From: a virus
Reading direction: 5' to 3' (one strand)
Length of the DNA stretch: 20,676 nt
UHGV virus genome: UHGV-0171440
A program made the position numbers and the translations under genes. Below, in pieces: positions 377 to 8,041 of this stretch. How positions within the stretch are numbered: the first letter of the stretch is position 1; every line of letters begins with the position of its first letter. Below the pieces are notes generated by a model. It had not been told where the DNA came from, made no database searches, and saw only the letters and a program-made list of their open reading frames with translations.

Positions 377-1597
377 TCATGTAATGGTTACTGGCACCTC
401 GACAGATATTCCGTGAATCGGCTCGTTAATCAGTATCTTGATGTTTCCTGACACGTTCTCATCGAAAACAACGTCAAAGACAAGATTTTGAAATATTTGG
501 TTCCGTCGAGATACTAGTGCCTGATGAAAGTAGTTCACAGGCAGATGAAGTGTTGCATTGACCTTGGGTTCAAATGAAATTTCTGGCTCCACTACCGATA
601 CGTATCGTGTTGAAACATCCTGTGGTAAGGATGTTGGGGATAGTTCGATGGTCACCGTTTTCCCGTTGACCTTTACACTCTTCTTCGCAAGAACATTCAG
701 CGGTGAATAGGCGTGATACACAGAAAGGAGAAGTCTCGCCCTGCTTGCCTTGTCAACAATGCTAATAGTCGAAAGCGCATCCCCGCCAGAAGAGTAAGAG
801 GAAACAATATCTACAATACCAGAGTCCTGGGTTATCTTTCGGACTGACAACGTACTGAACCTGTCCTCAAAATCAGTTTCCACCACCAGTTCCGAGAACT
901 GAGCATTCAGCAGGGAAAATGGAACGCTGTAGTGGTAGTTTTTTGTTGCCCTGAACGAATACACAGGGGAAACAAATCTCGGAACCGTTGGATACGCTGC
1001 GGCGGGTCTGTCCAGTTTTGTCGGGTAAGCCGGAACCTTGTAGCCAGCCAGCAGAATATATCTCAACTCGTCGTCTTCGTTCGGTGGATCTATCTCAGCC
1101 ACCTCAACGAGGTTGTAATCATGGTCCTGATTGATAATGGCAACAGGATCACCATAGGCATCAAACCCCAGCAGCTTGTGTTTCCGCTGGTCTACATTTG
1201 GTAGTGGTTCGACTGAAGGCTCAGGAACACGCAGGAAGTGCTTTGTCGCTAAAGCCTTCCCCGCCCCGCTGGCAGGCATAATGTTCGGATAATAGTAAAC
1301 CTGCACATTATTCACGTCATAAACAACCATGCTGTAGGCATCGTCAGTGTAGAACTCAACGACAGCACCGTTATACACACAGTAGCCACCAGAATTAATA
1401 GAAAGAGGCTGTGACACAGGAATGAATTCCCCGCTCTCGTTTTCAATGTAAACGTTAATCTGGTTTTTCTTGATGACAGGGTCTTTGTCAGGCTTACCAA
1501 TATAGATTTGACCATTTGCTATTGGTCTCAGACTGTTTGGATAAGTGAATAACTGCGCAGGGATTCTGACGGCAACGTTTGGGTTAATTGTTGTCAT
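377..1597 (-). CDS. Tailspike / receptor-binding protein (406 aa) with a P22 gp9-like N-terminal head-binding domain and a short divergent C-terminal domain
   Basis: N-terminal ~110 aa (ANGQIYIGKPDKDPV...NQINVYIENESGEF...) resembles the P22 gp9 head-binding domain; the rest does not resemble the P22 beta-helix as I recall it. AGAGG Shine-Dalgarno 5 nt before the ATG. Last gene of the late operon. Confidence 0.8.
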   Translation of the reverse strand: MTTINPNVAVRIPAQLFTYPNSLRPIANGQIYIGKPDKDPVIKKNQINVYIENESGEFIPVSQPLSINSGGYCVYNGAVVEFYTDDAYSMVVYDVNNVQVYYYPNIMPASGAGKALATKHFLRVPEPSVEPLPNVDQRKHKLLGFDAYGDPVAIINQDHDYNLVEVAEIDPPNEDDELRYILLAGYKVPAYPTKLDRPAAAYPTVPRFVSPVYSFRATKNYHYSVPFSLLNAQFSELVVETDFEDRFSTLSVRKITQDSGIVDIVSSYSSGGDALSTISIVDKASRARLLLSVYHAYSPLNVLAKKSVKVNGKTVTIELSPTSLPQDVSTRYVSVVEPEISFEPKVNATLHLPVNYFHQALVSRRNQIFQNLVFDVVFDENVSGNIKILINEPIHGISVEVPVTIT

Positions 1598-1657: not shown

Positions 1658-1879
1658 TTAGTTATCAAAATGTCCGTACGTTTCTTCTTCTTCAGGTGTA
1701 AGGGGGAGAATCTCGACTCTATCTATAGATACCTTTTCAATGTACCCATGAGGTCTACTTAAAATTAAAGCTCTCTCATGCCACAGAACTCCAAGAATGT
1801 GATACCTTCCAGCATCGCCTTTTACCCTGGCTCTTCCTTTGATTCTTGGCGGCATAATGCCATATTTTTTCTTTGCCAT
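1658..1879 (-). CDS. Hypothetical 73-aa protein, translationally coupled to the upstream antirepressor-like gene
   Basis: ORF whose ATG overlaps the upstream stop (TAATG); no recognisable motif; sits between the antirepressor-like gene and the tailspike. Confidence 0.55.
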   Translation of the reverse strand: MAKKKYGIMPPRIKGRARVKGDAGRYHILGVLWHERALILSRPHGYIEKVSIDRVEILPLTPEEEETYGHFDN

Positions 1880-2607
1880 TATGCAACATTACTCCCATGA
1901 ATCAGGTGTTGTAGTGCTTTAACACCTTCCGCATTGTAGCGGAATGCTTCCACCTGTTTGCTGGAATGCGCAGATTTATCCAGGAAGAACTTCCCGTACT
2001 GCTCAGTTTTGAGGTTGTTTGCGTTAGCAATGCGACCAATCTTGTTGGCCGTTACTCCAAGCTGCTCTGCAACCTCCCCTGCTGAGTAGTAGTGTTCTTC
2101 GATTGCTGGTAGAGGAATTGCATTAAAACCGACTATTGGGTTGATTATGCTTGCTGCCGCAGTCTGCTTTGCCTCAGGTGCAAGGTTAGGCATCAAGTCG
2201 AACAGGTTGGTAACTGCTTCAACTGTCATTTTCAGGGTGCGGGCCTGACGGTACTCAACAAGACCAGTTGCTGACTTCCCGTTCTTGATGTGCGCTTCCT
2301 GCATATTTTCAAGTTTATCTACCAGAGAGCGACGTACCGCCTTAGACTCACGAGCGGCCACGCGGAGCGCCTGCTTGATGGACATATCAATGATGACCAT
2401 CGAAGTTTTGTTCGCTTTTTGCACTACACTTTTTGTGTAGTGCTCCCCATCCAGTTCATCTTCAACTTTCTCGATGAATTTGTTATTGCGAACTTCCGGC
2501 TCACCGCACTGTTTGCGTGCTTCATTGACCATCGCCAGCAGAGACTGGCTATCAATAGTTTTATCCGTGACAACGGATCCGATGTTTGCTACATTCTTCA
2601 AAGTCAT
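1879..2607 (-). CDS. Phage antirepressor-family protein (about 242 aa) with a KilAC/ANT-like C-terminal domain
   Basis: Start set at the internal ATG (MTLKNVANIG...) preceded by AAGGAA-n6; C-terminal region (HYYSAGEVAEQLGVTANKIGRIANANNL...) resembles antirepressor C-terminal domains from memory. The domain assignment is not verified. Confidence 0.55.
   Translation of the reverse strand: MTLKNVANIGSVVTDKTIDSQSLLAMVNEARKQCGEPEVRNNKFIEKVEDELDGEHYTKSVVQKANKTSMVIIDMSIKQALRVAARESKAVRRSLVDKLENMQEAHIKNGKSATGLVEYRQARTLKMTVEAVTNLFDLMPNLAPEAKQTAAASIINPIVGFNAIPLPAIEEHYYSAGEVAEQLGVTANKIGRIANANNLKTEQYGKFFLDKSAHSSKQVEAFRYNAEGVKALQHLIHGSNVA
2567..2595 (+). promoter_or_regulatory. Candidate sigma70 promoter on the plus strand, antisense to the 5' end of the 242-aa antirepressor-like gene
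   Basis: -35 GTGACA (2567-2572), 17-bp spacer, extended -10 TGcTACATT (2587-2595). Confidence 0.35.
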
Positions 2608-2676
2608 TAGGCATTCCTTATGTGGTAGTAAGGGTGTGACATAGGCCGCCAGCAGCACACTGGCGGTTTTCTTTTT
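2602..2676 (+). ncRNA. Candidate cis-antisense RNA (about 75 nt) complementary to the start codon and RBS of the 242-aa antirepressor-like gene
   Basis: Bounded by the candidate promoter above and a canonical plus-strand terminator at 2646-2676; it would cover the complement of the ATG (2605-2607) and the AAGGAA Shine-Dalgarno (2613-2618). Confidence 0.3.
2646..2676 (+). terminator. Canonical intrinsic terminator on the plus strand inside a minus-strand operon
   Basis: 7-bp stem CCGCCAG/CTGGCGG with a 7-nt loop, followed by TTTTCTTTTT. No plus-strand protein gene lies upstream of it. Confidence 0.55.
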
Positions 2677-2695
2677 GCGCCGTCCGGCGCACCAA

Positions 2696-3322
2696 TCAAT
2701 GAATCCATTCCTCGCCGCGCAGTTTTGTCAGCATTGGCTGAGCGTTCTTTACGACAAAATTGTTGGTATCAAGATTCTTCATTTCACGAAGAAGTGATTT
2801 CTTGGTTTCTTCTGACATATAGCGAGTCTCATATGCAATATCGTAAATTCTTCCTGAAAGCTCAGAACCAATTTGCTTCATTCCTGGGTAGATGTGTTTG
2901 CACATTTGTTGACTCTTCTCCATCCACAATTGTAAGTAGCAGAGATTAACCAGTTCTTCGTCAGTAAACTGTTTTGCAATCGGTGAGCATTCTGCCTGCC
3001 GATCCAAAATATCCAGCACCCAGCGGCGGAACTCTTTTGCTACAGGAGTGCGAGCAAACATCGCGATTAGGTGGGCACCGCGTAGTGAGAAAACTCGCAC
3101 TTTTTTGCGATAATTTCCTGAGGTACTCACTTCGAGTACCTGAGTCATTCCGGCGCTAAACTCATCGCTATACTTGTTATAAATCATTGTTACTGCACGA
3201 CTATTTGCGTATTTAAGTGCAGATGCAATATTAGATGATGTAAACCAAACACCATGCATATCACGGGTGGGCGCCAACTCAACTCCGTGGAAGTTGTAAT
3301 CTGATTTTGCTACAATGTTCAT
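2696..3322 (-). CDS. Antirepressor (Ant-like) with a Bro-N domain, about 208 aa
   Basis: Start set at the internal ATG (MNIVAKSDYNFHG...) preceded by AAGGAA-n6; N-terminal half resembles the Bro-N antirepressor fold (…VAKEFRRWVLDIL). The longer ORF in the track runs into the arc-like gene in another frame. Confidence 0.75.
   Translation of the reverse strand: MNIVAKSDYNFHGVELAPTRDMHGVWFTSSNIASALKYANSRAVTMIYNKYSDEFSAGMTQVLEVSTSGNYRKKVRVFSLRGAHLIAMFARTPVAKEFRRWVLDILDRQAECSPIAKQFTDEELVNLCYLQLWMEKSQQMCKHIYPGMKQIGSELSGRIYDIAYETRYMSEETKKSLLREMKNLDTNNFVVKNAQPMLTKLRGEEWIH
3308..3316 (+). promoter_or_regulatory. Candidate extended -10 promoter element (TGcTACAAT) for a sar-like antisense RNA
   Basis: TGn plus TACAAT on the plus strand just inside the 5' end of the Bro-N antirepressor gene; no good -35 (TGGAAG, 3/6). 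Confidence 0.35.
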
Positions 3323-3396
3323 GTTAGTTTCCTTGCATACGGTTACTGACATAGAGGCCCGGTTTGTGTTCGCGCACTGCCGGGCTTCGCTATTTT
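3323..3396 (+). ncRNA. Candidate sar-like antisense RNA (about 70 nt) spanning the antirepressor RBS and the arc-ant intercistronic region
   Basis: Position and length mirror the P22 sar RNA as I remember it; it would cover the complement of the antirepressor RBS and end at a plus-strand hairpin (GCCCGG/CCGGGC, 3357-3385) followed by a T-rich tract. Confidence 0.4.
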
Positions 3397-3398
3397 TA
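3356..3398 (+). terminator. Plus-strand terminator-like hairpin in the arc-ant intercistronic region
   Basis: 6-7 bp GC stem with a structured 17-nt loop, then TTCGCTATTTTTAT. The T-run is displaced 8 nt from the stem, so this is a moderate call. Confidence 0.4.
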
Positions 3399-3563
3399 TG
3401 TCCTAGCATTCTTCTCTCCAATCAGTCCGTACACTTTTCTCAATTGATAAATAAGTTCCGTGTTGAACTGTCGACACTCTTTTTCTCCATTTCTTTCAAT
3501 CGCCTTCCTTACATCCTCTGGGAAACGAACCTTGCGTTGATACATGTCTTTTGCTTTTTCCAT
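3396..3563 (-). CDS. arc: Arc-like ribbon-helix-helix repressor, 55 aa (absent from the ORF track, which only lists ORFs of 60 aa or more)
   Basis: Hand translation of the minus strand gives MEKAKDMYQRKVRFPEDVRKAIERNGEKECRQFNTELIYQLRKVYGLIGEKNART; AAGGAG Shine-Dalgarno 5 nt upstream; strand-helix-helix pattern and position upstream of ant match P22 Arc. Confidence 0.65.
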   Translation of the reverse strand: MEKAKDMYQRKVRFPEDVRKAIERNGEKECRQFNTELIYQLRKVYGLIGEKNART

Positions 3564-3593: not shown

Positions 3594-3601
3594 CAGTCAA
3601 A

Positions 3602-3630
3602 ATTGTCACACCGTGCGTCATTGAAGTCAA
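3602..3630 (-). promoter_or_regulatory. Candidate promoter for arc-ant (Pant-like)
   Basis: On the minus strand: -35 TTGACT (complement of 3625-3630), 17-bp spacer, -10 GACAAT (complement of 3602-3607). Confidence 0.4.
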
Positions 3631-3649
3631 CCCCACCGTGGGGCATAAT
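3621..3649 (+). promoter_or_regulatory. Candidate promoter for the mnt-like gene (Pmnt-like), overlapping the arc-ant promoter face to face
   Basis: -35 TTGAAG (3621-3626), 17-bp spacer, -10 CATAAT (3644-3649); the two -35 hexamers overlap within the near-palindrome TTGAAGTCAA. Confidence 0.45.
3631..3643. promoter_or_regulatory. Palindromic operator candidate 2 (CCCCACCGTGGGG)
   Basis: Second perfect 13-bp palindrome, 50 bp from the first; fills the spacer of the mnt promoter and abuts the -35 of the arc-ant promoter. Confidence 0.5.
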
Positions 3650-3686
3650 TTACTTATTGTGAATTTTTCCTGTTTGGACTAATGGT

Positions 3687-4061
3687 ATGAGTAGAGAAGA
3701 CCCTCAACTTCGGATTAGGCTTCCTGTTGAATTAAAAAAAATAATTGAAGCGTCATCAAAACAAAATAATCGTTCTATGAATGCTGAGATTGTCACTCTG
3801 CTTGAGTTGGCGATTCGTGTTTGTCGTGATTTTGGGCCGGAGGATGGTCCTATCGTTCAGCAGTTTAAAGAACAACTAGATGCGATAAACAGAAAATATG
3901 ATAAAATCGAGCATGAAAAACTTATACCTCAACTTTTAGAAATCATAGAAAAACAGAAAAAACAAGTAGATAAACTTATTAGCATGGTTGAAAGATCAAT
4001 TCCTCTTTCAGAGGAATATAAGCAGAAATATCTTGGTGATGACAACAAAAAACCCACCTGA
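3687..4061 (+). CDS. mnt: Mnt-like ribbon-helix-helix repressor with a long C-terminal extension (124 aa)
   Basis: N-terminus MSREDPQLRIRLPVELKKIIE...NNRSMNAEIV aligns with P22 Mnt (MARDDPHFNFRMPMEV...NGRSMNSELL) from memory; divergent from arc-ant as in P22 immI; the C-terminal ~80 aa are K/E/Q-rich and probably coiled coil. Confidence 0.8.
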   Translation: MSREDPQLRIRLPVELKKIIEASSKQNNRSMNAEIVTLLELAIRVCRDFGPEDGPIVQQFKEQLDAINRKYDKIEHEKLIPQLLEIIEKQKKQVDKLISMVERSIPLSEEYKQKYLGDDNKKPT

Positions 4062-4079
4062 CGGTGGGTTTCATTTCTT
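4045..4079. terminator. Bidirectional intrinsic terminator between the convergent mnt-like and lipoprotein genes
   Basis: Hairpin AACCCACC-TGAC-GGTGGGTT flanked by an A-run (4047-4052) on one side and TTTCATTTCTT on the other; the mnt stop codon TGA sits in the loop. Confidence 0.6.
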
Positions 4080-4497
4080 AATCTTGCTTCGTGGAAGGTG
4101 TAAGAGATGCGTTTGCCTCTTTTGGCTTCAAGGTATACATCCCACCATTAAATGGATCAACAGCAAGCCAACCAATTAACCCACCAAACACAAGGTTTCC
4201 ACCAATATACCAACCATTAGCATTGGCTTTGATTGGCAGGGTAACTGGTTCGTACCCATCCTTTTCCATAGTGATCTGGTAGCTCTTTTTGCCAAAATAA
4301 CTACCATCTGACTTGGAAAGAGTTACTCCTTGTGGAGTTTTACCTTGCGCAACAATCACACCTGATTCATCTTTTACCTTAAAGCTCGCACCAGAAGGAT
4401 TGCTGTTCACTTGCACAAGTTGCGTTTCATCACCAACAATAGTTGCGCACCCAGATAACATGATAGCGCCAGCAACGACGCTAATAATCCTCTTCAT
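4078..4497 (-). CDS. Lipoprotein with a PEGA-like domain, about 139 aa
   Basis: Start set at MKRIISVVAGAIMLSGC (signal peptide with lipobox LSGC); mature region has PEGA-like motifs (SNPSGASFKV, GKTP, KDGYEPV) and a Gly/Trp-rich hydrophobic stretch (GWYIGGNLVFGGLIGWLAV). Domain call is from memory of the family pattern. Confidence 0.7.
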   Translation of the reverse strand: MKRIISVVAGAIMLSGCATIVGDETQLVQVNSNPSGASFKVKDESGVIVAQGKTPQGVTLSKSDGSYFGKKSYQITMEKDGYEPVTLPIKANANGWYIGGNLVFGGLIGWLAVDPFNGGMYTLKPKEANASLTPSTKQD

Positions 4498-4963
4498 ATC
4501 AATTTCCATTTCGTGAAAACCACAAACATGCTAATAGCAAAACAAAATAATGTGAAGTGCGTACATAAAAAATGTGCGTTTAATAACCACGAGCACGCAG
4601 AGAACTCGAAGAATAATCACACCAACTACACGAAAAGCTAAATACAGACATTAAATATTGTGCAATAGTTATAAATACAACATTTAGTACACACTAAAAT
4701 TATTATACATAAATATATCATTAAAATGATAATCAAGCCGGTTCACACCTCGGCTTTTTAATGTGCGGTTCGCAGAACTCCACAAGGCCACTTTCAAATA
4801 GTGGCGCACTCATTTTTGGCAGTTTTCCCAGATTGAGATTTTTCATCATATCTTGAGATACTAATGGTTTAACCGATAACACTGCACAAAAAGCACAAAC
4901 TTCCCTTTTCTTTTGCCCATAGGATCAGCCCAGTTATGGCTAATTGCTGCAATAGGAGGGCAT

Positions 4964-5860
4964 GTGATTATTGGTAATAGGGTAATGGTTGAGGATAAAG
5001 GTGGACTTACCGCCAAGGACAAAGTGAACGAAAGTTCAAATCATCCTGAATATGAATACAGGATGGTATCTTTATCCATGTCATCAAACAATGCCGCAGC
5101 AATCACCCGTCGCGATATCTCAATCCATATATTTGACGGCGAACCTTTAACCAGAGGGGGGCGCACGCATTATAAGAGCATGTTTGAAAAGGATCTTTCA
5201 GAAAACAGATATATAAAAGCCAATATTAATATGGATTCAGTATCTGATAATATCTTTTGCTTATCCGCAACTGATAGTGGAATGCTTCCAGTCCGACCAT
5301 CTCAGATTATGATATCTATACGTGAAATAAGAGGAGGTAAGTCACCAGAAACATACTGCGGCAAATTTTATTTCAATGATGAAAATGAAGAAAGAGAGTA
5401 CTCTTTTAAGAAGGGAGATAACTCACTTTTCATTTATCTAAATCTTGATTCTTCTATCTTTTCCGACATATTTAACAGCTTAAAAAATGGAGACACGACA
5501 ATTGAATTTGAGATCAACTTTCCTGCTTACGCAGACTGGCTAGATTGGATGGCGGGGGGAGGTTGGCCTACGACATATATCATCAATCCAGCACGTGATG
5601 ATGAAAACTTCATCTCCATAACGAGCATATCGACCTCCCAATCAGCTAATTGGAGAGTTGAAGATGAAGAAACTGAAGTCATTAAAAATGATGACACTTG
5701 CAATTATGAAAATGATATTGAACATAAAGATGTAAATGCATCAATCATTGCCACCAATGAACTTATATCTAACCATTCTATCCACACAAAACGGTTAACA
5801 TCTTACTTAGCAATAATCACATTTTGCTTAATAATATTAACTATTAAGGTTTGTTTCTAA
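4964..5860 (+). CDS. Hypothetical acidic, Ser/Asn-rich protein with a single C-terminal transmembrane anchor; start uncertain (TTG 4913, GTG 4964 after AGGAGG, or ATG 4985)
   Basis: Long ORF opposite to the late operon and convergent with the gp16-like gene; visibly AT-rich relative to the late genes; C-terminus LTSYLAIITFCLIILTIKVCF is a hydrophobic tail anchor; no catalytic motif recognised. Confidence 0.7.
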   Translation: MIIGNRVMVEDKGGLTAKDKVNESSNHPEYEYRMVSLSMSSNNAAAITRRDISIHIFDGEPLTRGGRTHYKSMFEKDLSENRYIKANINMDSVSDNIFCLSATDSGMLPVRPSQIMISIREIRGGKSPETYCGKFYFNDENEEREYSFKKGDNSLFIYLNLDSSIFSDIFNSLKNGDTTIEFEINFPAYADWLDWMAGGGWPTTYIINPARDDENFISITSISTSQSANWRVEDEETEVIKNDDTCNYENDIEHKDVNASIIATNELISNHSIHTKRLTSYLAIITFCLIILTIKVCF

Positions 5861-5911
5861 CAGCCGTCCTTGGCTGACTGTATGGTGACAACCAAGTAGA
5901 TTTTCGCTCCC

Positions 5912-8041
5912 TTATTGTATTTTTGATTGTGCGTCTGTATCTGCGCTATCCTGTTGAGATAACCACGTGGTAAACCCAAGACGTGCAATTGTGCGCCTGT
6001 CACGTTCTGGAAGTGATTCAAAAAAACGCCTCCAGTGAGGAGAGCGCCTGATGCGAGATTCGGTAACATGGTCAGGCGCTTTGCCAAGCAGATTTTTAAC
6101 CGCACTCTGGAAAGCTGGTGAAGAAATTAACTTATCTGCGGCATCCGTCGCCCCTGCACCGCCTGCAATCTGGGCTTTACGTGCAACCATTGTGCCAATA
6201 TCATGGCCTGCAACAGCCCCCAGTGGCCCATAGAATGAACCAACCATAGTACCTGCTCTTTGTGCATATTTCGATACCAGTTGATAGGGAGTCGTGACCT
6301 TACTGAATCTGTCAGTAAACTCATTCAGCTTTCCGGTAGAAATTTCGTGTGATTTGGCATTTTTTATTGCTCTGGCGACTTTATAGGCATCGTACAAGCC
6401 GCGCATTGCCTCTCTCGGCAGATGTCTGGCTAGTAATTTAAGTTGCCCATGATGCTGCATGTTTTGCCACCAGTCAGCAAAACCAGACGGATTAAAGTCT
6501 GCCCCACGTTTCCCCAGTGAAAGCATATCCCTTAGCGCTGTTCCGATAAGTTCTGTTCTTAGAGTACGTGATGGCGTGTTTTGCATTATATCTAGGAATG
6601 TTTTTGAATTTCCTTTTGCCATAGACTGGAGAGCATTTGTTGTTTTGTAAGCAATATCTCCGTTCAGCGTTTTTCCACGGAGATTTATCATCTGACTCTC
6701 TATATTTTTTCGCATGGCGACAAGGCGCTGCGCCACCTCAAAATCCCGCGCGTATCCTGAATCAGAAAGGATGGCTTTCTGGTCTTCTGACAAAGAAGCG
6801 TACAACCTTGATAAGGCTGTTCTGTCTGCGTCTTTATACGGCCCTGACTTTTTATCCAGCGCATCTCCAACAAGCCTCCTCTGCTTGTTTAAATTTGCGT
6901 ACGTCAGGATACCCTCAGGCCCCGGATTTACTGCTTTAAAAACCTGCTTTTCAATTAATTCGAGATTCTCCCATCCCCCCAAATCATCGGCGATTTTCTC
7001 CAGCATAGCGCTTGTTTTAGGGGCTTCAACTTCTGCTCCCGGAATCATGGCGGAATCAACACGCTTATATAGCTGGTCGCTACGTTGTATTAGCGCTTCC
7101 ATCCGGTTATCTATATTAGAGATATACTTTTCATTCATTCCCAGCGCATCGGAAGCACCTGCAATATCATCAATTATCCTGCCGGCACTGGAAGCCAGTT
7201 CACTTATTGCTTTGTCCTCCTGAGTTTTAAGGGCGGATCCGGTCCGTGATTTTATTGCCTGCTCTACTGCCTGATACTGAGCATTCCCTGACAGGTGAGA
7301 AGGAAGAATTGACTCAACCCCCAGTCTTTTGGCGGCTTCGGCAATGTCTTTTTGTGGTTTTATATCCAGTTCCCTTACCGCCGTGGATAAATCTGGATTT
7401 TTTTGTGTCGACAACTCTCTTAGTTTCCTTTCCGTTGTATTGGCTCCATCAATACTGGCACTCCTTCCGGTTACTTTCCCCGCCACTTTTCGAATAGCTG
7501 GGCCAGCGAGTTCTGCCACGGGACCAGCCACAGCCCCAATAGCAGCACCGGAAGCAACATCGCTATTTGTTCCATTGGCTACAATAGCCCCTTCTCCAGC
7601 ACCAAGCCCTGCGGCGGCAGCCAGCCTTGCCGCCCCTTTCGGAACCTGAGAAATAATCCCACCACCACTAACAAATGGTGCTGCTTGTCCAACGAACTCA
7701 CCAACATCTTGTGCGGTTGATGGTTTTGCCGCTAACTTCTGCTGTAGAGACTGAATTGCGGCTTGCTCTTCTGGTGTCATATCCTGAAATAGACCAACAC
7801 CTTTACCAACATCCATCAATCCACTGAGAACGCCATACATAAAACGGTCGAAACCGTTAGCATTATTAACAACATTTTCCTGCCTGGAATTTTCCTCTGG
7901 TGAAACCAAAGGTGATTGCTGCTGCTCTGGTTGGGAATCAAGCACAAAACCATCAGGAAGCTGTGAACTATCAGGAAACTGTGAGTTATCAGGTTGTTCA
8001 TCGAGCACAAAACCTTCCGGTAAGATTACATTTGCTGCCAT
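5912..8041 (-). CDS. Ejection (internal virion) protein, gp16-like, 709 aa
   Basis: Third large gene after the gp7- and gp20-like genes; Gly/Ala-rich stretches; start overlaps the gp20-like stop. Assignment is mainly by position. Confidence 0.7.
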   Translation of the reverse strand: MAANVILPEGFVLDEQPDNSQFPDSSQLPDGFVLDSQPEQQQSPLVSPEENSRQENVVNNANGFDRFMYGVLSGLMDVGKGVGLFQDMTPEEQAAIQSLQQKLAAKPSTAQDVGEFVGQAAPFVSGGGIISQVPKGAARLAAAAGLGAGEGAIVANGTNSDVASGAAIGAVAGPVAELAGPAIRKVAGKVTGRSASIDGANTTERKLRELSTQKNPDLSTAVRELDIKPQKDIAEAAKRLGVESILPSHLSGNAQYQAVEQAIKSRTGSALKTQEDKAISELASSAGRIIDDIAGASDALGMNEKYISNIDNRMEALIQRSDQLYKRVDSAMIPGAEVEAPKTSAMLEKIADDLGGWENLELIEKQVFKAVNPGPEGILTYANLNKQRRLVGDALDKKSGPYKDADRTALSRLYASLSEDQKAILSDSGYARDFEVAQRLVAMRKNIESQMINLRGKTLNGDIAYKTTNALQSMAKGNSKTFLDIMQNTPSRTLRTELIGTALRDMLSLGKRGADFNPSGFADWWQNMQHHGQLKLLARHLPREAMRGLYDAYKVARAIKNAKSHEISTGKLNEFTDRFSKVTTPYQLVSKYAQRAGTMVGSFYGPLGAVAGHDIGTMVARKAQIAGGAGATDAADKLISSPAFQSAVKNLLGKAPDHVTESRIRRSPHWRRFFESLPERDRRTIARLGFTTWLSQQDSADTDAQSKIQ

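What the first reader, a model, noticed from the sequence alone, without database searches (positions are those of the whole stretch)
4913..5860. Low-GC gene for a tail-anchored acidic membrane protein at the sieA-equivalent position
This plus-strand gene runs opposite to the whole late operon and converges on the gp16-like gene, which is where P22 carries sieA. Its sequence is visibly AT-rich against the surrounding ~50% GC structural genes, suggesting recent acquisition. The product is acidic and Ser/Asn/Asp-rich with one C-terminal transmembrane helix and no motif I recognise. That fits a prophage-expressed superinfection-exclusion or abortive-infection factor, possibly a new family. The function is a guess from position and composition only.
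Basis: partly seen in the sequence, partly recalled or inferred. Interest (0 to 1): 0.8.

Follow-up and report, generated by a model that had tools for sequence, protein, structure and literature searches.

The report
Orphan tail-anchored prophage membrane protein
A real, conserved but very rare gene sits where phage P22 keeps its exclusion gene sieA; it encodes a membrane-tethered protein of unknown fold, unrelated to SieA, that bacteria keep even after the rest of the prophage has decayed, so it is a good but untested candidate for a new anti-phage protein.

Summary
A plus-strand gene (true start GTG 4964, stop 5860; 298 aa, 36% GC against 47-56% for the late genes, pI 4.8) converges on the gene-16 homologue. 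This is exactly the position and orientation of sieA in P22.

It is not a SieA. There is no sequence similarity, no RYPxEA motif, and one C-terminal membrane helix instead of three or four. In a Providencia prophage it lies in one mnt-X-sieA gene string next to a genuine SieA.

It founds a tiny orphan family: about 15 clusters among 5.8 billion proteins, plus seven remote representatives. Pfam, PHROGs, NCBIfam, PADLOC and PDB give no hit. No copy was found in sequenced phages, plasmids or complete E. coli genomes.

The 11 family members whose surroundings could be read all lie in this slot of a P22-like prophage or in a prophage remnant. The gene often follows mnt directly.

In remnants the gene stays intact under purifying selection (dN/dS 0.20, with dS matching the flanking host genes).

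AlphaFold (pLDDT 79.5) gives a beta-rich domain expected to face the cytoplasm, an acidic disordered linker and a helix ending in the membrane anchor. No significant fold match was found.

Best reading: a lysogen-expressed, host-beneficial moron, most likely a phage-exclusion or defence protein acting at the inner face of the membrane. The function itself is untested. "Recent acquisition" is not supported.

The parts
4964..5860 (+). Coding sequence of the 298-aa protein (GTG start, TAA stop at 5858-5860)
   Evidence: ORF. Start fixed by the alignment with 12 homologues that begin MIFG. dN/dS is 0.07-0.26.
4954..4959 (+). Ribosome-binding site AGGAGG, 4 nt before the GTG start
   Evidence: Read from the sequence. 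Homologues also have GGAGG or GAGG-like sites before their starts.
4964..5647 (+). N-terminal beta-rich globular domain (residues 1-228), expected to be cytoplasmic
   Evidence: AlphaFold2 with a 21-sequence alignment: block-mean pLDDT is mostly 74-95 across this part (one block at 68), with about 14 strands and 3 short helices. No signal peptide. Conserved motifs are HPEYEYRM, GxFYFxD, GDNSL, FPAYADWLD and DENF.
5648..5728 (+). Acidic, poorly conserved, disordered linker (residues 229-255)
   Evidence: pLDDT below 50 for residues 229-255. Residues 229-262 have pI 4.05. This is the region of the family alignment that is rich in gaps and varies in length.
5714..5857 (+). Long C-terminal helix (residues 251-298): a juxtamembrane stalk followed by the membrane anchor
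   Evidence: AlphaFold2 helix 251-297. The motif ELKDxNASIxATNELL before the anchor is conserved among the closer members.
5801..5857 (+). Single transmembrane segment at the extreme C-terminus (residues 280-298, SYLAIITFCLIILTIKVCF)
   Evidence: Kyte-Doolittle 19-residue mean is 2.27, the only segment above 1.6. The same holds for all 23 family members.
4510..4963 (.). AT-rich intergenic region between the divergent lipoprotein gene and the target. It must hold the target's promoter in this prophage.
   Evidence: 36% GC. No ORF with support. No Rfam match. Candidate sigma-70 site TTGAGA-18-GATACT with TG at 4833-4862, but the number of such sites is not above the shuffle expectation.
4874..4878 (.). 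Joint where the closest relatives (E. coli loci L001-L006) carry a 1.67-kb insertion of two extra plus-strand genes (Peptidase_S9, DUF805)
   Evidence: Window 4047-4874 matches L001 7412-8239, and window 4878-12469 matches L001 9915-17506, both at 99%. Alignment; gene content.
5861..5911 (.). 51-nt gap between the convergent stops of the target and the gene-16 homologue
   Evidence: The terminator scan found nothing inside this gap.
5912..8041 (-). Gene-16-type ejection (DNA transfer) protein, last gene of the late block before the variable region
   Evidence: phrog_6704 at 7e-165 and phrog_770 'DNA transfer protein' at 3e-46. Synteny with the gp20 (Inj_translocase) and gp7 homologues.
3687..4061 (+). 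Arc/Mnt-type ribbon-helix-helix repressor gene of the immI-like region, with a bidirectional hairpin at 4050-4071
   Evidence: Pfam Arc at 3e-07. Terminator scan. In other prophages the family member directly follows the mnt homologue.
4078..4509 (-). Neighbouring 143-aa lipoprotein gene (context only; an independent cargo gene)
   Evidence: Lipobox LSGC. phrog_6823 at 2e-85, function unknown. Weak PEGA match. Absent from the other family-bearing prophage types.

Best explanation
The gene is a cargo gene ('moron') of the variable region between gene 16 and the tailspike gene of a P22-like E. coli prophage. It encodes the founding member of an undescribed family of tail-anchored inner-membrane proteins.

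Architecture: a 228-residue acidic beta-rich domain with no signal peptide, so it should stay in the cytoplasm. A roughly 25-residue acidic disordered linker and a helical stalk tether it to a single C-terminal membrane helix.

Expression and benefit (inferred): the gene is expressed from the prophage and benefits the host independently of the rest of the phage.

Proposed function (inferred, not shown): it protects the lysogen against incoming phage at the inner face of the cytoplasmic membrane. The tethered domain would bind a phage component that appears there during genome entry, such as the cytoplasmic end of the gp16/gp20/gp7 conduit or another early injected protein, and block productive entry without killing the cell.

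What is shown: the gene is real, its position, the architecture, the absence of relatives, and retention under purifying selection. What is inferred: expression in lysogens, cytoplasmic topology, and any anti-phage activity.

Probabilities: about 0.8 that it is a lysogen-expressed, host-beneficial moron; about 0.45 that the benefit is anti-phage; about 0.25 for the specific non-lethal entry-block mechanism.
For: 1. Position. It has the same slot and orientation as P22 sieA. All 11 family members whose surroundings could be read lie either between a gene-16 homologue and the mnt/arc/ant/tailspike block of a P22-like prophage, or in a remnant of one. Hosts are E. coli, Klebsiella, Citrobacter, Salmonella and Providencia for the prophages, and Chimaeribacter and an unnamed Enterobacteriaceae lineage for the remnants.

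2. Likely expression in lysogens. In L010, L012, L015 and L016 the gene starts 17-29 nt after the stop of the mnt homologue on the same strand, with its own Shine-Dalgarno site and no room for a terminator. Mnt is the lysogeny-maintenance repressor of P22 (established knowledge; annotation).

3. Host benefit.
- In Chimaeribacter (L009) only the integrase, a 200-aa ORF, the tailspike gene and this gene remain.
- In Enterobacteriaceae bacterium 4M9 and relatives (L018-L021) only this gene and an integrase remain, and in L018 the integrase is split.
- Between L018 and L019 the gene has dN/dS 0.20 and dS 0.33. Seven flanking host genes have dS 0.10-0.38, which fits vertical retention since the hosts diverged.

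4. Architecture. Every one of the 23 members has one hydrophobic segment, always at the extreme C-terminus, and no signal peptide. All are acidic (pI 4.5-5.1). The AlphaFold2 model has pLDDT 79.5 and pTM 0.67.

5. The slot is known as a hypervariable 'ant moron' that holds sieA in P22 (PMC2629481). Only 22 of 66 P22-like phages carry sieA (PMC10883804), so other cargo in this slot is expected. SieA homologues of types A, B and C are absent from the window and from every family-bearing locus except L012.
Against: - No experiment and no homology to any protein of known function.
- PADLOC has no hit. This is weak evidence, because P22 SieA itself has no PADLOC hit either.
- No convincing promoter was found in the window or in L001. 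Promoter-like sites are no more frequent than in shuffled sequence.
- In Providencia the gene coexists with a SieA in one gene string. A second blocker of the same entry step would be redundant there.
- The same slot carries cargo with no obvious link to phage defence in other phages (PMC2629481).
- The family is very rare. It is absent from 5,426 complete E. coli genomes, 50,697 phage records and 72,556 plasmids. That is unusual for a broadly useful defence gene.
- The membrane helix is conserved only in hydrophobicity among remote members. This fits a passive anchor but says nothing about the mechanism.
Confidence: 0.45

Rival explanations
1. Abortive-infection effector. The cytoplasmic domain senses a phage product. 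Oligomerisation of the C-terminal helices then permeabilises the inner membrane, killing or arresting the infected cell. Single-helix membrane effectors of signalling defence systems work this way (my own knowledge, not tested here).
For: A single-gene unit with a sensor-sized soluble domain plus a membrane helix. The helix carries conserved polar or charged residues in the closer members: Y281, T/C within the helix, K295. Coexistence with SieA in L012 makes more sense for a second, later layer of defence than for a second entry block.
Against: The helix sequence is not conserved among remote members beyond hydrophobicity. No similarity to any PADLOC model. No fold match to known pore-forming or effector domains. 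No sign of a partner or antitoxin gene that travels with it.
Confidence: 0.2
2. Lysogenic-conversion factor unrelated to phage defence. A membrane-tethered cytoplasmic protein that changes host physiology, for example envelope function, stress tolerance or interaction with a eukaryotic host.
For: The gene-16-to-tailspike region is a general cargo site with many unrelated genes of unknown function (PMC2629481). Neighbouring cargo in relatives is heterogeneous: lipoprotein, Peptidase_S9 plus DUF805, YafO toxin, ClpP-like. Retention in decayed prophages shows a host benefit but not which one.
Against: The family is strictly confined to P22-like prophages and their remnants, immediately next to the ejection-protein genes (all context calls). 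A general physiological factor would be expected on other elements too, yet none was found on plasmids or in other phage types.
Confidence: 0.25
3. A divergent SieA: a fourth sequence type of the known P22 exclusion protein.
For: Same slot and orientation as sieA. Known SieA types share only about 25% identity with one another (PMC10883804).
Against: BLASTP against P22 SieA gives E = 4.4. None of the 23 members has the RYPxEA motif, while SieA types A, B and C all have it. The family has one hydrophobic segment against three or four in SieA. It is 298 aa against 164-212 aa. It sits next to a true SieA in L012.
Confidence: 0.02
4. A phage lytic-cycle or virion function (for example an accessory to ejection or lysis), or a decaying non-functional ORF.
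For: Tight linkage to the 3' end of gene 16 (0-51 nt) in the intact prophages, except L012 where sieA intervenes. One copy is frameshifted (L017).
Against: It is oriented against the late operon, so late transcription is antisense to it. It is retained intact where all virion genes are lost. dN/dS is 0.07-0.26. It is absent from all sequenced P22-like phage isolates.
Confidence: 0.05

Closest known systems
P22 SieA superinfection-exclusion protein (types A, B, C; Leavitt et al. 2024, PMC10883804)
   Same: Same genomic slot and orientation, convergent on gene 16 in the region between genes 16 and 9 of P22-like prophages. An inner-membrane protein encoded by a low-GC cargo gene. Plausibly expressed from the prophage.
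   Different: No sequence similarity. One C-terminal helix against three or four membrane segments, and no RYPxEA motif. Nearly twice the size, with a large soluble domain. Coexists with SieA type C in Providencia. SieA's function is demonstrated; this protein's is not.
'ant moron' cargo genes of P22-like phages (Villafane et al. 2008, PMC2629481)
   Same: It lies in the region defined there, between the gene-16 and tailspike genes. The region varies between otherwise syntenic phages and holds mnt/arc/ant, sieA and genes of unknown function.
   Different: That paper lists other unknown genes (hkcB, hkcC, 59a and others). I saw no 298-aa tail-anchored family in the passages I read, and no sequenced phage carries one.
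Small single-helix injection blockers such as HK97 gp15, and T4 Imm (recalled from memory; not tested here)
   Same: Prophage- or phage-encoded inner-membrane proteins thought to block genome entry at the cytoplasmic membrane.
   Different: Those proteins are small and mostly membrane-embedded. This one has a 228-residue, presumably cytoplasmic, domain. No sequence comparison was possible with the tools used.
Bacterial tail-anchored inner-membrane proteins (ElaB/YqjD, Flk; recalled from memory)
   Same: The same topology class: a soluble N-terminal part and a single helix at the extreme C-terminus.
   Different: No Pfam or NCBIfam match to any of them. Different soluble domain and genomic setting.

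Membership tests
SieA (P22 superinfection exclusion A, types A-C) | Detectable sequence similarity to a SieA type (the types share about 25% identity) | tested here: not met
   BLASTP against P22 SieA gives E = 4.4. tblastn with SieA types A, B and C finds nothing in the window. Among family-bearing loci it finds only the separate 201-aa gene of L012. PHROG SieA family phrog_7745 is hit by P22 SieA but not by the target.
SieA (P22 superinfection exclusion A, types A-C) | Conserved cytoplasmic motif FxRYPxEAxxFNK | tested here: not met
   The regular expression RYP.EA is absent from all 23 family members and present in SieA types A, B and C.
SieA (P22 superinfection exclusion A, types A-C) | Polytopic inner-membrane protein with several membrane helices, 164-212 aa | tested here: not met
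   One hydrophobic segment, at the C-terminus, in a 298-aa protein. The same scan gives three or four segments for SieA types A, B and C.
SieA (P22 superinfection exclusion A, types A-C) | Located between the gene-16 and gene-9 homologues of a P22-like prophage | tested here: met
   and all context calls.
SieA (P22 superinfection exclusion A, types A-C) | Blocks DNA injection by P22-like phages | not testable with these tools
   Needs plating, K+ efflux and DNA-entry assays.
Moron / 'ant moron' cargo gene | Present in some and absent from other otherwise syntenic relatives, inserted between conserved phage genes | tested here: met
   P22 and HS1 carry sieA there. Relatives differ in neighbouring cargo while the late genes stay syntenic.
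Moron / 'ant moron' cargo gene | Base composition different from the surrounding phage genes | tested here: met
   36% GC against 47-56%. The same offset is seen in all hosts.
Moron / 'ant moron' cargo gene | Own promoter and terminator; expressed from the prophage | tested here: inconclusive
   Only weak promoter-like sites, not above the shuffle expectation. The terminator scan found nothing in the 51-nt gap after the gene. Indirect support comes from a position directly after mnt in four loci.
Tail-anchored membrane proteins (topology class) | A single transmembrane helix within the last ~30 residues, no signal peptide, and a soluble N-terminal part | tested here: met
   Hydropathy and the AlphaFold2 model. 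The actual topology was not tested experimentally.
Known anti-phage defence systems (PADLOC-DB v2) | Match to a model of a known or candidate defence protein | tested here: not met
   No hit at E up to 1. The library does not detect P22 SieA either.

The most novel reading that the evidence does not exclude
The protein is a new kind of single-gene phage-exclusion factor with a previously unseen fold. It acts from the cytoplasmic face of the inner membrane on the exit end of the P22-type ejection-protein conduit, or on another early injected component. It would complement SieA rather than replace it, and it is valuable enough that hosts keep it after the prophage itself has decayed.
Probability: 0.2. 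Interest if true: 0.75.

Novelty: new variant of a known kind. Interest (0 to 1): 0.5.

Why it matters
How short-tailed phages pass DNA through the inner membrane, and how SieA stops them, is still unresolved (PMC10883804). A second, unrelated protein in the same slot would help if it proves to block infection. Its large soluble domain is expected to sit on the cytoplasmic side. That gives a tractable binding partner for mapping the cytoplasmic end of the ejection conduit, through escape mutants and pull-downs.

It would also add a new family to the short list of superinfection-exclusion and defence proteins that current defence finders cannot see. PADLOC misses even SieA.

Retention in decayed prophages under purifying selection is a clear example of host domestication of a single prophage gene.

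If the protein has no anti-phage effect, it remains an ordinary gene of unknown function among many in a known hypervariable region.

Tried and rejected
- Family libraries. Pfam, PHROGs, PADLOC and NCBIfam scans of the protein gave nothing, and a Pfam scan of all 21 family members gave nothing consistent.
- Solved structures by sequence. A PDB profile search found no hit at E up to 10.
- Annotated collections. Searches found no copy in phages (megablast and tblastn with the window protein, tblastn with P0019), plasmids (tblastn) or complete E. coli genomes (megablast and blastn).
- Family size. The word-indexed search found 12 clusters, and a profile added two (P0021, P0022); a further profile search added P0023. 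The exhaustive HMMER search of 1.84 billion representatives found eight true hits, seven of them new remote members, plus one spurious repeat protein, P0020.
- Related loci. IMG/VR gave one locus, with a frameshifted copy. GTDB representative genomes gave none. The broad alignment A4 was too divergent for pattern search.
- First structure model. With 13 sequences it was unusable (pLDDT 42.7). Adding remote members raised it to 79.5.
- Fold searches.
  - Foldseek against PDB had a best E of 0.025 with TM-score below 0.21, to MCM N-terminal and SSB-type OB folds. I do not accept these. The scores are insignificant, and the uniformly acidic protein is an unlikely nucleic-acid binder.
  - Foldseek against BFVD had a best E of 0.019.
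  - afdb50 was not available.
- Internal duplication of the N-terminal domain: hhalign probability 2.8%.
- Paralogy to any phage protein in the window or fetched loci: none.
- Rfam on the intergenic region: nothing.
- Promoter scans: not above the shuffle expectation.
- Bacterial gasdermin idea, prompted by the adjacent Peptidase_S9 in L001. Rejected because neither PDB fold search listed a gasdermin among its matches. In addition, the peptidase is a later insertion that is absent from the window.
Full report
**1. The observation**

The window is the late region of a P22-like prophage, read on the minus strand. Gene order is portal, scaffold, coat, gp4, gp10, gp26, gp14, gp7, gp20 and gp16. 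A variable region follows, then a tailspike gene with a P22 head-binding domain at 377-1597.

The closest relatives, at about 99% identity, are E. coli prophages.

The reported plus-strand ORF 4913-5860 exists, but its TTG is only the longest possible start. All homologues begin MIFG..., which aligns with GTG 4964, 4 nt after AGGAGG at 4954-4959. I take the gene as 4964-5860, 298 aa.

Its stop lies 51 nt from the stop of the 709-aa gene-16-type ejection protein (5912-8041, minus strand). That protein hits phrog_770 'DNA transfer protein' at 3e-46.

In the P22 record, sieA lies 22 nt beyond gene 16 on the opposite strand, followed by orf59a, mnt, arc, ant and gene 9. The 'sieA-equivalent position' is therefore correct.

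Composition and sequence features:
- GC is 36.3%, against 47% (gp16), 49% (gp20), 56% (gp7) and 48% for the window.
- pI is 4.8, with 45 acidic against 29 basic residues.
- The protein is rich in Ile, Ser, Asn, Glu and Asp.
- There is one hydrophobic segment, residues 280-298, at the very C-terminus. No signal-like N-terminus is present.

The low-GC tract spans the whole cargo region from about 3600 to 5900.

**2. It is a real gene of a very small orphan family**

- The word-indexed search of 5.8 billion proteins found 12 clusters at 46-100% identity. All are 288-299 aa and unnamed. Hosts are E. coli, Salmonella, Citrobacter, Klebsiella and Chimaeribacter.
- A profile search of 1.84 billion representatives, with no word index, found only eight true hits, seven of them new remote members. 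These share 24-38% identity with the window protein and have the same length and architecture.
- Further profile searches added two Salmonella clusters, confirmed a Providencia protein, and added one more cluster (P0023) to the unnamed Enterobacteriaceae lineage of P0016.
- Synonymous sites are saturated between most pairs, while pN is 0.25-0.55. Where dS can be estimated, dN/dS is 0.07-0.26.
- Pfam, PHROGs, NCBIfam and PADLOC give no hit, and the PDB profile search gives no hit.
- No copy was found in 50,697 phage records, 72,556 plasmids or 5,426 complete E. coli genomes.
- IMG/VR holds one copy, which is frameshifted.

**3. Context in relatives**

Eleven family members could be placed in their genomic surroundings. 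All lie either in the same slot of a P22-like prophage or in a remnant of one.

| Locus | Host | Arrangement |
|---|---|---|
| L007/L008 | Klebsiella | Between the gene-16 homologue and the ant/tailspike genes |
| L010 | Citrobacter | Directly after mnt |
| L015/L016 | Salmonella Nagoya | Directly after mnt |
| L013/L014 | S. houtenae | With a YafO-toxin pair, and in L014 a ClpP-like gene, as further cargo |
| L012 | Providencia | Directly after mnt |
| L017 | IMG/VR contig | Converging on a gene-16-sized ORF |

Where the gene follows mnt, the gap is 17-29 nt, with a Shine-Dalgarno site and no room for a terminator. Co-transcription with the lysogeny-maintenance repressor gene is therefore likely. 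This is an inference.

In the window itself a divergent lipoprotein gene (4078-4509, minus strand) and a 454-bp AT-rich spacer separate the gene from the Mnt/Arc-type gene (3687-4061). It therefore needs its own promoter. The only candidate is TTGAGA-18-GATACT at 4833-4862, which is not statistically distinguishable from chance.

The nearly identical E. coli prophages L001-L006 carry a 1.67-kb insertion exactly at window 4874/4878. It holds Peptidase_S9 and DUF805 genes on the same strand. This shows that the slot keeps accreting cargo.

**4. It is not SieA**

- BLASTP against P22 SieA is at noise level.
- The SieA motif RYPxEA is in SieA types A (P22), B (HS1, fetched) and C, but in none of the 23 family members. 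SieA proteins show three or four hydrophobic segments, against one here.
- In Providencia locus L012 the family member is followed on the same strand by a 201-aa gene that is a SieA homologue. It shares 28% identity over 97 residues with P22 SieA (pairwise E = 1e-8) and contains NRYPGEA. This fits the 'type C' described for Providencia, Morganella and Proteus (PMC10883804).
- The two proteins therefore coexist in one mnt-X-sieA string.
- In all other family-bearing loci and in the window, no SieA of any type is present.

**5. Retention after prophage decay**

- In Chimaeribacter (L009) only an integrase, a 200-aa ORF, the tailspike gene and this gene remain.
- In Enterobacteriaceae bacterium 4M9 and related assemblies (L018-L021) the gene stands alone next to an integrase, at the yfdC/ccm integration site that is also used by intact relatives. 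In L018 the integrase is split into two ORFs.
- Between L018 and L019 the gene has dS 0.33 and dN/dS 0.20. Seven flanking host genes have dS 0.10-0.38 and dN/dS 0.02-0.08. The whole 3.6-kb remnant aligns at 84% identity.
- This fits vertical inheritance of the remnant, with the gene kept under purifying selection, though more relaxed than for housekeeping genes.
- It is the strongest evidence here that the protein benefits the host on its own.

**6. Structure**

With 13 close sequences AlphaFold2 failed (pLDDT 42.7). With 21 sequences including the remote members it gave pLDDT 79.5 and pTM 0.67. The model has three parts:
- a beta-rich domain with several 12-14-residue strands and three short helices (residues 1-228, mostly pLDDT 74-95);
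- a disordered acidic linker (residues 229-255, pLDDT below 50);
- one long helix (residues 251-297) whose last 19 residues form the hydrophobic anchor.

Fold searches found nothing significant:
- Foldseek against PDB had a best E of 0.025 with TM-score below 0.21, to OB-fold proteins.
- Foldseek against BFVD had a best E of 0.019.
- AFDB was unavailable.

The N-terminal domain and the whole protein are acidic in every member (pI 4.5-5.7 and 4.5-5.1). This argues against nucleic-acid binding.

With no signal peptide and the only helix at the extreme C-terminus, the N-terminal domain should remain cytoplasmic. This is a general property of tail-anchored proteins and an inference here.

**7. How it most likely works**

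Shown:
- a conserved, selected gene;
- a fixed position beside the ejection-protein genes of P22-like prophages;
- the same strand as mnt, often directly after it;
- retention in remnants;
- tail-anchored architecture;
- no known relatives.

Inferred:
- The gene is expressed in lysogens.
- The acidic cytoplasmic domain is held by a flexible tether at the inner face of the membrane, where incoming phage genomes and ejection proteins emerge.

I commit to phage exclusion or defence as the most likely benefit (about 0.45). The specific model is that the tethered domain binds an incoming phage component at the entry site and blocks productive entry without cell death (about 0.25).

An abortive-infection mechanism through the membrane helix is nearly as likely (about 0.2). 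It fits better with the coexistence with SieA.

A conversion function unrelated to phage (about 0.25) cannot be excluded. The region between genes 16 and 9 is a general cargo site (PMC2629481).

**8. Comparison, novelty and score**

- The protein is positionally analogous to SieA but fails every sequence and architecture criterion for membership.
- It fits the positional class of 'ant moron' cargo and the topological class of tail-anchored proteins.
- As a protein family, and apparently as a fold, it is undescribed.
- As a kind of thing, a prophage cargo gene for a membrane protein in a known hypervariable slot, it is a new variant of a known kind.
- 'Recent acquisition' is not supported. The low GC is a stable family trait across hosts (33-44% against 42-57% for the locus), and the lineages are old.
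- Interest is moderate (0.5). It is a well-delimited, testable candidate for a new exclusion or defence protein with a good evolutionary argument. However, there is no functional evidence, and unknown prophage cargo genes are common.

Noticed in passing
window 4078-4509 (-): A 143-aa lipoprotein gene (lipobox LSGC) with a weak PEGA-domain match and a strong match to PHROG 6823 (function unknown). It is a second low-GC cargo gene, divergent from the target. Only its signal peptide resembles the Cor exclusion lipoprotein.
   Followed up: partly
L001-L006 8240-9914 (equivalent to window 4874/4878): Otherwise 99%-identical E. coli prophages carry a 1.67-kb insertion with a Peptidase_S9 gene (325 aa) and a DUF805 membrane-protein gene (136 aa). 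It lies on the target's strand, exactly 90 nt upstream of the target's start. Neither gene has a PADLOC hit.
   Followed up: partly
L012 8921-9526 (+): In a Providencia prophage, a 201-aa SieA homologue (motif NRYPGEA, presumably the published type C) lies immediately downstream of the family member, forming an mnt-X-sieA string.
   Followed up: yes
L018 7992-10343; L019-L021; L009: Prophage remnants at the yfdC/ccm integration site keep the family gene intact, while the integrase is split in L018 and all virion genes are gone. In Chimaeribacter (L009) only the integrase, a 200-aa ORF, the tailspike gene and this gene remain.
   Followed up: yes
window 4735-4756 and about 4787-4815 (+): Two GC-rich hairpins, each followed by a T-run, lie on the plus strand inside the AT-rich spacer upstream of the target. 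Nothing obvious upstream needs terminating, and there is no Rfam match. The first hairpin is conserved in L001.
   Followed up: partly
window 377-1597 (-): The tailspike is only 406 aa: the P22 head-binding domain plus about 290 further residues. P22 gp9 is about 667 aa, and relatives here have tailspikes of 612-817 aa.
   Followed up: no
window 1879-3421 (-) and 3687-4061 (+): The immI-like region has two antirepressor-type genes: a 241-aa one with Bro-N and P22_AR_C domains, and a 259-aa one without a Pfam match. It also has an unusually long (124-aa) Arc/Mnt-type repressor, ending in a bidirectional hairpin at 4050-4071.
   Followed up: no
L013 6795-7819 (-); L014 3654-4190 (+): Salmonella houtenae prophages carry other cargo in the same slot: a YafO-toxin gene with a 188-aa partner (phrog_8416), and in L014 a ClpP-like protease gene directly after mnt.
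   Followed up: no
L017 5326-6218 (+): The only IMG/VR copy of the family gene is split by a frameshift into 158-aa and 166-aa ORFs. This is either a pseudogene or an assembly error.
   Followed up: partly
PADLOC library: P22 SieA and the Providencia SieA homologue have no PADLOC-DB v2 match. Negative results from that library therefore say little about superinfection-exclusion proteins.
   Followed up: yes
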